From Schmidtea polychroa (Eukaryota), in NCBI GenBank assembly GCA_044892525.1, contig CM097885.1, positions 24,926,001-24,990,000 of the forward strand: a stretch of 64,000 nucleotides of DNA. Direction: 5' to 3'. The notes below the pieces were generated by a model. The model saw only the letters and a list, made by a program, of their open reading frames with translations, was not told the DNA's origin and ran no database searches. Numbering within the stretch: the stretch's first letter is position 1; each line of letters begins with the position of its first letter. This document shows, in pieces, positions 14,451 to 24,829 of this stretch. The translations under genes were made by a program, and so were the position numbers.

Positions 14451-17400
14451 ATTCCGAAAAATAAATAGTTTTAAAAAATAAAAACATAAAATACTATTGA
14501 ATCTAATCTAGAAAAATTTATTTCCAAAACAATCCAGCACCATACCTATTTAGCACATCGAATACACAATGACTGAAACATAATTGCGAAAGGTACGATA
14601 GTCTATCCAAAGGAGTAAAATCCACTGTTGGGTGTGGCATAGAGAGCAGTAGAATATCAGCATTTTGTCGATTGTCTTTTCCAGTGATCGTCGAGATATT
14701 TAGTAAATTTCCAATCGGTGTTGATGACGACGATAGAATTCCACAATGAGAGCTCACATCAGCCGAGTCTGTAATTTCCATAAACAGGCCTTCAGTGAGA
14801 ATCATGCGACATATGGAATATTTGTGAAACTAGCATATACCAAATTCATTAGATAAAGTAGCGACATTCAAGTCTGAGAGTAGAACAAACACACGAGAGT
14901 TCGCATGACAAATACACAGAGCACATGGATATGCATACATCGTAGTTACGATCGGTGACATTCATATGAGAAAGATAAGATTATTCTCACGTAAACATCC
15001 ATAGTAGTTAACTTTACCATATGCCATACCGATGGAAATTTTCATCTCTGAGAGGCCATAACGGATAAGTGTGCTAGAATAGCAGCTGACCTGAGACTAC
15101 TACACTCAAGCTGTTATTTCTCCGATATCACAGTGATAGAGATTTGCTTAGGCCAGTATCGAAATAAATTGTATAATCAGTAACCGATGTTATGAGGTAC
15201 GAAAACTCTCAAAGTGCACTTGTTGGAAAATTGCCAATTAAATATTTTGAATAATCGTAGTAATTTTAAATTAGGATTTATAGATAGTAGTGGGATGTGT
15301 CACCACTGGCACATGTCACCTCTGGCACACTACCCCCCCGGGGGGTGTAAACGAAAAAAATTTTTTCAAGGTCAAATTTTAAACAAAGACATATGACTCA
15401 TCAAGGTCATTGAAACAAAGACCATGACTCATCCTATGACTCATCAAGGTCACTGAAACACAGACCATGACTCATCAAGATCATTGGATGACTCATCAAG
15501 CTCATTGAAACAAAGACCATGACTCATTCAAGGTCATTGGATGACTCGTCAAGGTCATTGAAACAAAGACCATGACTCATTCAAGGTCAAAGGATGACCC
15601 TCAAGGTCATTGAAACAAAGACCATGACTCACTCAAGGGCATATGATGACTCATCAAGGTCATATTTTTAAGGTCAAGGTCATATTTTTAAAGGTCAAGG
15701 ACATATTTTTAAAGGTCAAGGCCATATTTTTAAAGGTCAAGGTCATATTTTTTAAGGTCAAGGTCATATTTTTTAAGGTCAAGGCCATATTTTAAGGTCA
15801 AACTTTCACCAAAGGGTATCATTCGAAAGGTATTTGAGAGGTCTATCTAATGGTTATACCTTCGAAGGTGTATGGTGGGTCCTCGGCCTTCAAAGGGTCA
15901 AAAACCTTCGAATTTTTTCAAACTTTATCATATATATATATCATTCGAAAGGTATTTGAGAGGTCTATCTAATGGCTATACCCTCAAAGGTGGGTCAATA
16001 ACCTTCAAAGGGTGTCCAAAATTAAATATTTTTAAAACCGTACAATATTTCAAAAGGACTTTTGATGGTGAGTTCGAAGGTCGAACGGTTCAAAAATTTT
16101 AAAACCTTATAATATACATATCAAACAAAAGGTATTTGAGATGTAAGTATCATGGTAACCATAAAATATTTCAAAAGGACTTTTGATGGTGAGTTCGAAA
16201 GTTGAAGGGTTCAAAAATTTTAAAACCTTATAATATACATATCAAACAAAAGGTATTTGAGATGTAAGTATCATGGTCATACTTTCAAAGGTCATATTTT
16301 ACAAGATGGCGGCTATATAATTTAATTAAAGATTGCGTGTGTGTATTTTCTTAAAATTAATATTTAATCCTTTGCTTGGATTTTATTGATCAAGGGGTCA
16401 TTTTAAAAGGTAATTCAAAGGAGAATCCGTGCGCGTGTTGTCTTAATTTGTTTTATTAAAGTAATAATATTATTATTATTATAAGTATTATTATTATTAT
16501 TATTATTATTATTATTATTATTATTATTATTATTATTATTATTATTATTAATCTATATACTCCGAGTCTATCCGACAAAATATTTTGTCCCCCTATTGGT
16601 AATGCTCACAAGGGTACTGTCACGCTCAACAACTCGCAATGGTATTATTATTATTATTATTATTATTATTATTATTATTATTATTACTATTGTTATTATA
16701 ATTATTATTATTATTATTATTATTATTATTATTATTATTATTATTATTATTATTATTTTTACTATTATTATTATCATTATTATTGGGAAAGATATTAAAA
16801 TTATTATTATTATTTTCAAAATTTTAATCAATATTATTATTATTATTATTATTATTATTATTATTATTATTATTATTATTATTTTTATTATTATTTGGAA
16901 ATTTCTAATTATTATTTTAATTTAGAAGTTTCATTATTATTATTTACTTAAATATTTATAAAATATTTATAATTTCTACATCAATTACATGATTTTCAAC
17001 ATTTTCATCATTTGCATGATTATTTTAATAATTTTCTACATTTTCATGATTATTTCAGGATTTTTTCATCAAATATTTTTCAAAGTATTATTTTCAAATT
17101 ATTTTCAAAGTTTTTATCAATATTATTATTATTATTTTTATTATTATTATTATTATTATTATTATTATTATTATTATTATTATTATTATTATTTGCGAAG
17201 TTCTCATTATTTTATTTTCGATGTTTTATTATTATTTACTTAAATATTCATAAAACTTAATTTCTGCCTCAATTTACGATTTTCAATATTTGATGATTAT
17301 TTTCAGGAACATTTTCATAATTTTTAACGTTTTCATCATTTTCAATATTTTCATTATTTTCAACATTTTCATTATTTTCCATATTTTCACGATTTTCAAC

Positions 17401-18015
17401 ATTTTCAGGAACATTTTCATCATTTTCTATATTTTCATGATTTTTAACATTTTCATAATTTTCACGATTTTCAATATTTTCATCATTATTTTCTTCAAAA
17501 TTCTTAGTTTATTTATAAAATATCATTTTCAAAATTATTTTCAAATTTCTTATTATTTATTTTCAAAGTATATTATTATTATTATTATTATTATTATTAT
17601 TATTATTATTATTATTATTATTATTATTATTATTATTATTATTATTATTAATCTATATACTCCGAGTCTATCCGACAAAATATTTTGTCCCCCTATGGGT
17701 ACTGCTCACACTCAACAGGTTGCAAGGTTACTAGTCATGCTTATTATTATTGTTATACAATATGATGTTACTTAGACATTTGAAGGTTCAACCATGGTTA
17801 CAATTTCTAAATTTTGAAAACTCTAATTTGATTGGCTATCTCAATTTTTATAAATGTAAAAACAAAAGTAATTTAGTTATTAAGAAATTTATTTATTACT
17901 GATTTCTACAAGTATGCATATGAATGTGTAAATCACAAAACACATTTGGTAACTTTATTATTTTGTCAATATTTTTTATATATGTCACTTATAGCAAGGA
18001 AGTCCTACTAGAAAT

Positions 18016-22035: not shown

Positions 22036-24829
22036 AAATAATAATTATAATGTTATAATAATAATATTAATACCCTTGCGACATGTTGAATGTGACCAGT
22101 ACCCTTACGACAAATACATAGGGGGACAGAATATTTTGTCGGATAGACTAGGAGTATATAATAATAATAATATTGATTAAAACTTTGGAAATAATAATTT
22201 TGAAAATAACATCTTCCGCGCGGGAGGTAATATCTTTCCAAATATTAATGATAAATTAAATTATTACGTAATCGAAATTTAAAACAAAAAAAAATATTAT
22301 ATAATTAACGATTTAAATAAAATTAAATTATTACGTATTCGATAATTAAAACAAAAATAAAAATAATATATAATCAACGATTTAAACAAAATTAAATTAT
22401 TACGTATTCGATAATTAAAACAAAAAAAAATAAAAATATTATTATATAATTAACAATTTAAACAAAATTAAATTATTACGTAAACAAAAAATAAACCGCT
22501 GGAATAAAAATAGATGTCTTTGTTACTAAAAATAGAACGACCTTGGTGAGTCATCGGATCAAAAATGTTACTAAAATTATATTAAAAATGTTACTAAAAA
22601 TAGATGTCTTTGTTACTAAAAATAGAATGACCCTGGTGAGTCATCGGATCAAAAATGTTACTAAAAATAGATGTCTTTGTTACTAAAAATAGAACGACCT
22701 TGGTGACTCAGCGACTGAGTCATTGTCTTTGTTTAAATTACCTTGATAATTAAAACTTAATGATAATAATAATAATAATAATAATAATAATAATAATAAT
22801 AATAATAATAATAATAATATTAATAATAAATTTTGAAAATATCTTCGAAAATAATAATAATAATAATAAATAATAATAATAATAATACATTTGATAGTAA
22901 TAAATAATAAATCCCATGGGCGCGTAATTGTCTATGTTCTGAAAATGATGAGTTTGTTCAAAAAATAAATGAGTCATCGATGAGTACTTTTTTATTACCG
23001 TTTGTTTGATATGTATATTATAAGGTTTGAAAAATTTAAACCTTGGATCCTTGGACTCTTTTGACCTTCAAACTTGGACCATCAAACTCATCTTTGAATT
23101 ACCTTTTGTTTGATATGTATATTATAAGGTTTTAAAATTTTTGAACCTTGGACCCTTCGACCCTTGGACCTTCGAACTCTTATTATTATTAGTAACATCA
23201 CCTTTTGAATGATATATATATTATATGATTTGAAAAATATTTAATTTTGGATAGGTTATTGAAGGTTATTGACCCACCATATACCTTTGAGGATATAGCC
23301 ATTAGATAGACCTCTCAAATACTTTTTGACTGATATATATATTATAAAGTTTGAAAAAATTCGAAGGTTTTTGACCCTTTGAAGGCCGAGGACCCACCAT
23401 AGACCTTCGAGGGTATGACCATCATACTTACCTCTCAAATACCTTTCGACTGATATATATATTATAAAGTTTGAAAATATTCGAAGGTTTTTGACCCTTT
23501 GAAGGTTATTGACCAACCATACACCTTCGAGGATATGACCATTAGATAGACCTCTCAAATACCTTTCGACTGATATATATATATATATATATATATATAT
23601 ATATATATATATTATAAAGTTTGAAAAAATTCGAAGGTTTTTGACCCTTTGAAGGTTATTGACCAACCATACACCTTCGAGGGTATGACCATAAGATAGA
23701 CCTCTCAAATACCTTTCGAATAATACCCTTTAGTGAAGGTTTGACCTTAAAATTATGACCTTGGCCTTAAAAAATGACCTTGACCTTTAAAAATATGACC
23801 TTGACCTTTAAAATATGCCCTTGACCTCAAAAATGACCTTGACCTTCAAATATGACCTTGGCCTTTAAAAATATGACCTTGTCCTTAAAAATATGACCTT
23901 GACCTTAAAAATATGACCTTGAATGAGTCATGGTCTTTGTTTCAATGACCTTGAAGAGTCACCCAATGACCTTGATGAGTCATGGTCTTTGTTTCAATTA
24001 CCTTGATAAGTCATAGGGTGAGTCATGGTCTTTGTTTCAATGACCTTGCTGAGTCATAGGATGAGTCATGGTCTTTGTTTCAATGACCTTGATGAGTCAT
24101 ATGTCTTTGTTTAAAATTTGACCTTGAAAAAAAAATTTCGTTTACCCCCCGGAGGGTAGTGTGCCAGAGGTGACATGTGCCAGTGGTGACACATCCTACT
24201 ACTATAGATAACACTCGTAATTTGCTCAATAGGCGTTATAGATAATCATACAAAGTTTCAATTAATGGTGATCAACAATTCATCGAAATTTTGATTAAAT
24301 GTTATAACATTATTATTACTATAATATTATTTTATTATTATTATTAGATTATTATTATAATATTATTAAACATTATAAACCCTCAAACCATCAAGTATAA
24401 AATTGTCAAGTGGGGAAAAGAGGAAGAGTTTTGGGGAGGTAACTAGCGCCGATATAGTGTAATGATCGATCTAAAATGAAATCCAGTATTCGTAGAAAAA
24501 TTTTAGAGTTAGTAAATGTACTCCATTTAAAAATTCTTCCAGTTAATTCATTTGCATTCGTCAAGTCGATAGTAGTTATTATTAATTAAATTTGTGTAAA
24601 TAATGTAGAGTAGAAACGAGCTGTCGTCTGAGGGAAAATTCCCTTACCTATCTAATCAGTTCTTCTTTTTCTGTTAAACATCCAAGGTAGTAACGGAGTA
24701 GTTGCACCAAATATATGACATCTCGAACATCATATCTTAATCTCATCTTTATAGCTATGCAACATGATGCCAAATGCCAAGCCCGTTTTACGTCCTGTAC
24801 TACGCCCTTGCTTCTCCTGCTAGCACAAA

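What the first reader, a model, noticed from the sequence alone, without database searches (positions are those of the whole stretch)
15286..24203. Second palindromic element with a 6-bp TSD but no polymerase: fold-back architecture recurs
An independent insertion (TSD ATAGAT) with AGTAGT...ACTACT ends, inverted outer arms and a further ~1.1-kb inner inverted repeat carrying an ORF. Its terminal sequence differs from element C. Two separate fold-back elements in 64 kb suggest a tiered system of unseen helper, polymerase-only palindromes and polymerase-free palindromes.
Basis: partly seen in the sequence, partly recalled or inferred. Interest (0 to 1): 0.8.

Follow-up and report, generated by a model that had tools for sequence, protein, structure and literature searches.

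The report
Polinton remnant with internal mirror copy
This 8.9-kb insertion is a real, polymerase-free leftover of a virus-like Polinton/Maverick jumping element; about half of it is mirror-imaged, and its inner mirror copy likely comes from a rare copying accident in this copy rather than from a design shared by the family.

Summary
In detail: 6-bp duplication ATAGAT, AGTAGT..ACTACT ends, inverted outer arms, a 1.15/1.26-kb inner inverted repeat, no polymerase. It is only 49% paired. The outer arms are unequal tandem arrays; the next segments (0.9 and 1.7 kb) are not colinear; a 1.66-kb unique core holds decayed small genes, one encoding an IAP-type RING protein. The ends are homologous to those of polymerase palindrome C, and the right arm repeats the three-box order of truncated sibling A. 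So this is a non-autonomous Polinton-type element of a high-copy family. The inner repeat is the element's own right-arm DNA, not a nested element. In four public runs, no listed contig (0 of 32 shown, of 1,495) crosses its junction at 18357/18358, and both sides continue in their native contexts. The junction therefore looks rare or private, not recurrent. Best reading: a one-off fold-back template switch, rejoined in an (ATT)n tract. Main rival: a longer palindrome that lost its centre asymmetrically. The scan had already noted many 12-17.5-kb gene-less and polymerase-only Polinton palindromes in this genome (AI notes, unchecked). No whole genome was available to test them.

The parts
15280..15285 (.). 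left target-site duplication ATAGAT
24204..24209 (.). right target-site duplication ATAGAT
15286..16280 (+). left outer arm: AGTAGT end, 16-nt doublet, C/G tract, arrays of about 52, 21 and 120 nt
23000..24203 (-). right outer arm: same modules, different copy numbers
16280..17205 (+). left subterminal segment, not colinear with the right one: (ATT)n tracts, box 1L, and an older degenerate copy (about 16900-17110) of the 9-bp module
21277..22999 (-). right subterminal segment: (AAT)n, 38-nt array, box 1R, 69- and 67-nt arrays
17206..18357 (+). inner inverted repeat, left copy: 9-bp (E-N-x-like) module, (ATT)n, box 2L, leader, truncated 5' part of the RING gene
20020..21276 (-). inner inverted repeat, right copy (native position; runs on into the RING domain)
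18357..18358 (.). rearrangement junction, rare or private: left copy of the RING gene joined to gene-4-like DNA from the opposite direction
   Evidence: X8 loose end
18358..20019 (.). unique core, 1.66 kb, present in very many variant contigs of organism A
19871..20363 (-). decayed gene for a helical-domain plus IAP-type C3HC4 RING protein; frame broken near 19990-19996
19527..19718 (-). small open stretch ending in a hydrophobic segment (possible membrane protein remnant; inferred)
   Evidence: only a weak DUF6170 hit, E 0.03
18774..19130 (+). probable decayed small gene behind box 3; short similarity by eye to the ORF behind A's third box (weak)
18358..18758 (-). segment homologous to element A 9989-10681, cut at the junction
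16554..16640 (-). box 1L: short palindrome followed by a TATA-like run (predicted promoter)
17654..17740 (-). box 2L with leader
18665..18760 (+). box 3 with leader; TATA-like run followed by an ATG
20640..20720 (+). box 2R with leader
22070..22160 (+). box 1R

Best explanation
This is a polymerase-free, Polinton/Maverick-type element with a 6-bp target duplication, likely inserted by a helper's integrase, whose inner inverted repeat is a copy of its own right-arm DNA, likely made once by a fold-back template switch. Shown: ends, TSD, homology of the ends to polymerase element C, the same three-box order in the right arm as in sibling A, decayed accessory genes, a high-copy family, and a junction that the runs do not show. 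Inferred: the parent had equal tips but different left and right subterminal regions. DNA synthesis from a break or stall at 18358 switched onto the right arm at 20020 and copied about 1.2 kb outward to the next (AAT)n tract. It then rejoined the left part at its (ATT)n tract (17121-17193), losing the parent's middle. This leaves the left end's own older 9-bp module in tandem with the newly copied one. The event happened close to the time of insertion, and the product did not spread much.
For: Maverick hallmarks: (AGT)2//(ACT)2 ends and 6-bp TSD, as in PMC8097293 (passages). The end is homologous to C, whose ORF matches pPolB proteins. The box motif occurs 10 times in the window, 0 in 100 shuffles: 5 in B, 3 in A, 2 in C. 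Box distances from the end: A 1.67/2.56/4.37 kb, B right arm 2.06/3.50/5.46 kb. Junction: loose ends behind 18356-18357 continue as the right-arm RING gene (X1 9, X4 7, X11 4 contigs). Loose ends before 18359 continue like element A (X1 5, X4 2, X14 10, X11 1; X8 1). None of the 32 listed pieces (of 1,495) bridges the junction. Inner homology ends inside (ATT)n tracts on both sides, and the left arm holds an old and a young module in tandem while the right holds one. Timing: the inner arms differ by 1.9% overall (20/1,053; 2.3-2.5% in the non-repeat part). The core differs from the majority letter in both X1 and X4 at 14 or more of 1,658 sites (0.8%; 40 of 114 rows shown). The terminal 130 nt do not differ significantly from the inner arms (p 0.24); terminal 130 nt plus the next colinear block do (p 8e-5).
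Against: No sibling copy was seen whole: no genome held, contigs short. The second junction, in the (ATT)n tract, was not tested. 1,463 pieces were not shown, depth also dips elsewhere, and this very copy may be absent from those runs, so a small subfamily with the junction is not excluded. No clear microhomology was established at 18357/18358. Only one site (17917, beside an indel) is shared by both arms and absent from the runs, so an origin from a master that already had two arms fits the dating as well. No integrase, capsid or helper was found. The RING family was not tied to Polinton core genes at any locus.
Confidence: 0.5

Rival explanations
1. The element descends from a longer (12-17 kb) mirror-armed family member that already had unequal outer ends. 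A lopsided central deletion removed the inner left arm and the centre, leaving 3.07 kb of one arm and 5.85 kb of the other.
For: It also predicts a private junction with native continuations on both sides. Neighbour C is a near-perfect palindrome with homologous ends and the same gradient: outer 9/487 vs inner 6/4,784 mismatches, p 1e-6. Symmetry-breaking deletions stabilise palindromes (PMC8701086, passages). Earlier notes report such 12-17.5-kb gene-less families in this genome (unchecked).
Against: It needs an extra, earlier event to explain the non-colinear middles and the old-plus-young module in tandem on the left. The deletions described in that review are mostly small. I could not link B to those families: sequence look-ups found nothing relevant.
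Confidence: 0.3
2. One reading: the two-level inverted architecture is a replicating satellite design that recurs at many loci and is spread by an unseen helper.
For: The whole arm and core are high-copy (19,812 contigs laid in X1, 3,583 in X4). Ends and box are shared with C. The TSD is clean.
Against: The defining junction is not seen in four runs, and both sides continue natively. Only 49% of the element is paired. The left RING copy is cut in mid-gene.
Confidence: 0.1
3. The inner inverted repeat is a separate nested DNA transposon (17222-21259, TGT..ACA-like ends, 4-bp TCGA flank, reminiscent of Ginger).
For: The only TSD candidate at the outer edge is that 4-mer. Ginger elements have TGTNR ends and 4-bp TSDs (PMC2836005, passages).
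Against: TCGA is self-complementary, so any inverted repeat shows it as a false TSD. The end is TGTTT, not TGTNR. Ginger TIRs are 40-270 bp. An older copy of the module outside the boundary spans the same site. The box motif lies both inside and outside. The core is colinear with A. The arms end in mid-gene.
Confidence: 0.05
4. Assembly artefact: the left inner arm is a mis-assembled copy of the right.
For: No listed contig bridges the junction.
Against: The arms differ at 14 substitutions in 613 nt. At 17810, 18277 and 18293 the left arm alone departs from both the right arm and the majority in the runs, as expected of real decay. The TSD is intact.
Confidence: 0.04

Closest known systems
Polinton/Maverick elements (PMC8097293, PMC10748475, PMC4405056; passages read)
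   Same: (AGT)2//(ACT)2 end motif, 6-bp TSD, TIR within the 46-1,447 bp range, small accessory-type genes near the ends; ends homologous to a pPolB-coding neighbour.
   Different: No pPolB (tested); no integrase, ATPase, protease or capsid ORF; 8.9 kb; an extra 1.15-kb inner inverted repeat; arms made of unequal tandem arrays.
Foldback elements such as FB, Galileo, Tetris (PMC4079207, passages read)
   Same: [quoted passage not shown]
   Different: Those mostly belong to Mutator or P-type lineages with 8-9-bp TSDs (Tetris); here ends and TSD are Polinton-type, and the inner repeat is separated from the TIR by non-homologous DNA.
Snap-back / defective viral genomes (AAV snapback genomes PMC8235507, search listing only; adenovirus genomes made by recombination between inverted repeats, reference-list title in PMC13027316 only)
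   Same: A template switch yields a mirror copy of part of a linear genome that keeps its ends and depends on a helper.
   Different: Here the product is integrated, the two outer ends are not copies of one end, and no spread of this junction was found.
IAP/IDOL-type C-terminal RING E3 domains (PDB 3eb5, 4ic2, 9sa2; viral IAP/RING proteins in BFVD)
   Same: The C3HC4 RING of intact relative P0001 superposes on cIAP2/XIAP/IDOL RING domains (E about 1e-4, rmsd 1.7-2.5 A).
   Different: No BIR domain; the roughly 110-residue helical N-terminal part has no meaningful Pfam match and no atlas hit; the gene is broken in this copy.

Membership tests
Polinton/Maverick (autonomous) | 6-bp target-site duplication | tested here: met
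   ATAGAT on both sides
Polinton/Maverick (autonomous) | (AGT)2//(ACT)2 or (AG)3//(CT)3 end motif and terminal inverted repeats | tested here: met
   definition from PMC8097293
Polinton/Maverick (autonomous) | protein-primed PolB gene | tested here: not met
   0 of 120 pPolB queries hit the element
Polinton/Maverick (autonomous) | RVE integrase, packaging ATPase, protease, capsid genes | tested here: not met
   No ATG ORF over 160 aa, and the longest are low-complexity; Pfam on three core stretches gave only RING. No profile search for decayed remnants of these genes was run.
Non-autonomous Polinton/Maverick derivative | ends homologous to a Polinton-type element of the same genome, core genes lost | tested here: met
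   end homologous to pPolB element C; shared box
Non-autonomous Polinton/Maverick derivative | autonomous helper with matching ends in the genome | not testable with these tools
   no genome held; viral-contig scans empty
Non-autonomous Polinton/Maverick derivative | multi-copy family | tested here: met
   thousands of variant contigs over arm and core in X1 and X4; no copy number derivable
Foldback element (structural class) | long modular TIR with variable tandem repeats and a non-coding or defective middle | tested here: met
   49% paired; middles not colinear
   0 of 32 listed pieces (of 1,495) bridge it and loose ends show native continuations; leans to not met, but hidden rows and short contigs prevent proof
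Ginger DNA transposon (nested inner element) | TGTNR ends, 40-270-bp TIR, true 4-bp TSD | tested here: not met

The most novel reading that the evidence does not exclude
This genome hosts a defective-interfering-like swarm of Polinton derivatives (polymerase-only and gene-less palindromes) made by fold-back copying during protein-primed replication. This element is a caught intermediate: a satellite with two different parental ends in which fold-back synthesis began internally and stopped at a microsatellite. It would show that mirror arms are built from the centre outward, and that satellites keep a cassette of box-driven accessory genes, among them a new IAP-type RING ligase family.
Probability: 0.25. 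Interest if true: 0.7.

Novelty: new variant of a known kind. Interest (0 to 1): 0.38.

Why it matters
Polinton replication is inferred, not shown. Rearranged copies with dated junctions are among the few records of how these elements copy and recombine. Both B and C have inner arms more alike than outer arms, the opposite of what pairing of the two tips alone would give; that constrains the mechanism. The element also points to an undescribed small RING E3 family and a shared promoter-like box. As a single, probably dead-end copy it adds a data point rather than a new tier.

Tried and rejected
Viral contigs: box, array motif, RING protein, RING alignment and C's pPolB all gave no locus. Metagenome contigs: terminal pattern 0; the RING alignment gave one 1,281-bp contig with no DNA similarity to the window. 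Genome contigs: two chance 22-nt matches in bacterial contigs. Rfam: 0 families. ESM Atlas: no usable hit for the RING protein's N-terminal part. The ORF behind A's third box: no homologue. No RNA holder listed on record; X11 is only a guessed RNA run, and nothing on expression is drawn from it. Summed contig depth of arm vs core was not used as copy number. Folding: box and junction show no unusual structure (z -0.14, 0.85, 0.96); left end z -2.07 but right end -0.34. Long isoleucine/asparagine ORFs from (ATT)n tracts were rejected as genes. A recalled resemblance of the box/leader to Helentron/DINE-1-type ends was not tested and is not used. Literature: searches listed no paper describing palindromic or internally mirrored Polinton derivatives; 'palindrom' occurs 0 times in PMC8097293, PMC10748475 and PMC6431247. 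Subscription journals and Repbase reports are not in the library, and no supplements were opened.
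Full report
Observation. The element runs from 15286 to 24203 (8,918 bp) between two copies of ATAGAT, with AGTAGT and ACTACT ends. A chance 6-mer match has p about 4e-4. These are the end motif and TSD length given for Mavericks in PMC8097293 (passages). The first 130 nt of the two ends match at 120 of 126 columns, and 4 of the 6 mismatches lie in homopolymer runs. None of 120 pPolB proteins hits the element by tblastn.

Anatomy. There are four layers. (1) Outer arms of about 1.0 kb (left) and 1.2 kb (right), built of tandem arrays of about 52/43, 21/20 and 120 nt in different copy numbers: 84 mismatches in 918 columns. No left 120-nt unit has a near-identical right partner; the best pair differs at 5 of 68. 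(2) Subterminal segments, 16280-17200 and 21280-23000, that share only a box motif and simple repeats. (3) The inner inverted repeat, 17206-18357 vs 21276-20020, with 20 mismatches in 1,053 columns. (4) A unique core, 18358-20019. In all, 4,358 of 8,918 bases are paired. It is half a palindrome, unlike neighbour C (50661-62590), whose inner arms differ at 2 of 3,978 bases.

Relations inside the window. B's end is homologous to C's (133 matches, 20 mismatches), and C's ORF is a pPolB with thousands of relatives. A 20-nt box occurs 10 times in the window and never in 100 shuffles: five times in B, three in a one-ended sibling A (from 5637), twice in C. Read in one direction, it is a short palindrome followed by a TATA-like run; at box 3 an ATG follows. 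I take it as a predicted promoter; this is untested. Read inward, B's right arm has three boxes at 2.06, 3.50 and 5.46 kb; A has three at 1.67, 2.56 and 4.37 kb. B 18358-18758 is homologous to A 9989-10681. The right 5.85 kb of B is therefore a native end-plus-accessory region of the lineage.

Cargo. The inner-repeat ORF is the 5' part of a gene whose 3' part encodes a C3HC4 RING (Pfam zf-C3HC4_3, E 1e-6). The right copy is broken near 19990-19996. The left copy has a break near 18209 and is cut at 18357. An unbroken natural relative exists (P0001, 163 aa, 82% identical). Several further proteins of about 90-190 aa match over both the helical part and the RING, and 17 of 18 aligned rows hit the RING family. 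The model of P0001 (mean pLDDT 85.8) is six helices plus a RING that matches cIAP2, IDOL and XIAP RING domains and viral IAP/RING proteins over the RING only. No locus tied this family to Polinton core genes, so calling it a Polinton accessory gene is an inference from the ends. The 9-bp module reads as an E-N-x repeat in one frame; other small remnants are weak.

Family and junction. Twenty runs from eight studies hold part of 17740-20640. Laid on 17745-20015, X1 gave 19,812 contigs and X4 3,583, covering all 30 bins: arm and core belong to a high-copy family. I then laid four runs on 18270-18450. Contigs from the arm side end at 18356-18357 and continue as the RING gene does in the right arm (X1 9, X4 7, X11 4). 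Contigs from the core side begin at 18359 and continue like element A (X1 5, X4 2, X14 10, X11 1; also X8). None of the 32 listed pieces bridges the junction; 1,463 were not shown. X1 depth falls from about 1.75 million to 0.28 million in the junction bin, but it also falls to about 0.4 million at 18431-18444, so the dip alone proves little. X14 (organism B) covers only the core side. The reading is that the junction is rare or private; a small subfamily is not excluded.

Nested element and artefact. The only TSD candidate at the outer edge of the inner repeat is the self-complementary 4-mer TCGA. An older copy of the module outside the boundary spans that site, and Ginger criteria (PMC2836005, passages) are not met. 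The arms differ at 14 substitutions in 613 nt. At three of these the left arm alone departs from both the right arm and the majority in the runs, which argues against a mis-assembled duplicate.

Timing. Among the 40 rows shown (of 114), the core departs from a 75% or greater majority in both X1 and X4 at 14 of 1,658 sites, and the left arm at 4 of 613, one of them shared with the right arm. The copy is thus roughly 1% from the family majority, and each inner arm has drifted about as much. The terminal 130 nt fit the same age (p 0.24), whereas terminal 130 nt plus the next colinear block do not (19/279 vs 20/1,053, p 8e-5). The two ends were therefore probably already different inward of the tips when the element inserted. 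C shows the same gradient at a younger age (9/487 vs 6/4,784).

Mechanism. Shown: the structure, the homologies, the family, and the native continuations. Inferred (0.5): a parent with equal tips and unlike subterminal regions underwent one template switch. Synthesis from 18358 jumped to the right arm at 20020, copied outward to the (AAT)n tract near 21280, and rejoined the left part in its (ATT)n tract. This explains in one event why homology ends in microsatellites, why the left arm has an old and a young module in tandem, and why inner identity exceeds outer. Integration was by a helper's integrase (from established Polinton biology; PMC4405056, passages); the helper was not seen. The main rival (0.3) is a longer palindrome with a lopsided central deletion, a known way to stabilise palindromes (PMC8701086, passages). 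It fits the junction and the dating, but needs an earlier event for the unequal middles. The join near 17200 would decide between them and was not tested.

Comparison and novelty. It works like a non-autonomous Polinton derivative with a foldback-like build (PMC4079207, passages). It is not an autonomous Polinton and not a full snap-back palindrome. Polinton remnants and TIR-driven rearrangements are known in C. elegans (bioRxiv 10.1101/2024.01.15.575659, passages). Five searches listed no paper on palindromic Polinton derivatives; the library lacks subscription journals and Repbase, and I opened no supplements. Earlier notes of this scan report many gene-less and polymerase-only Polinton palindromes in this genome, and call the host probably a flatworm. 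These are unchecked and gave me the deletion rival; I could not link B to those families. Names of transcription-factor motifs and the Helentron resemblance are recalled, not from a call.

Verdict. Real; a new variant of a known kind; the recurring-tier claim is not supported for this element's own architecture. Interest 0.38.

Noticed in passing
window 50661-62590: Element C: near-perfect palindrome with a pPolB gene in each arm, ends AGTAGA..TCTACT, TSD GACCTA, splitting a non-LTR retroelement (RVT_1 at 50253-50729, zf-RVT at 62681-63961). Outer arms 1.9% divergent, inner 0.13%.
   Followed up: partly
window 5637-11300: Element A: one-ended, diverged sibling (AGTAGTATG end) with arrays and three boxes in the same order as B's right arm; no right end and no pPolB found. 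Its end is preceded by ACTACT two bases away, giving a short palindrome across the boundary.
   Followed up: partly
window 15286-16130, 23100-24203, 50661-51350, 61900-62590, 5637-7200: End arrays are dense in TGACTCA and TCAAGGTCA words (B left 9 and 11 in 845 bp; C left 20 and 17 in 690 bp; 1 and 0 in a 26-kb control stretch). These are recalled as AP-1-type and NR5A/ERR-type sites: a possible enhancer array.
   Followed up: partly
window 51746-52250: In C, the box and the leader that are adjacent in B flank a 127-aa minus-strand ORF; the leader is inverted relative to the box.
   Followed up: no
window 20986-21175 (+) and 17200-17570 (-): The 9-bp repeat module reads as an E-N-x repeat in one frame, downstream of a box and an (AAT)n tract: possibly a decayed acidic, Asn-rich gene.
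   Followed up: partly
window 39923-41695: Remnant of a second, different pPolB (DNA_pol_B_2, E 2e-5), cut off by a roughly 740-bp repeat that recurs at 28160-28900 (inverted) and 37406-38110.
   Followed up: no
window 29106-29381 and 36401-36685: A 71%-identical inverted pair that contains AGTAGT (29151) and ACTACT (36624) internally; not examined as element ends.
   Followed up: no
window 16300-16315: A single CAAGATGGCGGC word (recalled as a YY1-type site) in the left subterminal segment only.
   Followed up: no
protein P0056: A distant member of the RING family lies on a 23.5-kb contig that could show its gene neighbourhood; no open tool could fetch it.
   Followed up: no
window 1410-1967: Tc5/pogo-type transposase fragment (HTH_Tnp_Tc5, E 3e-5).
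   Followed up: no
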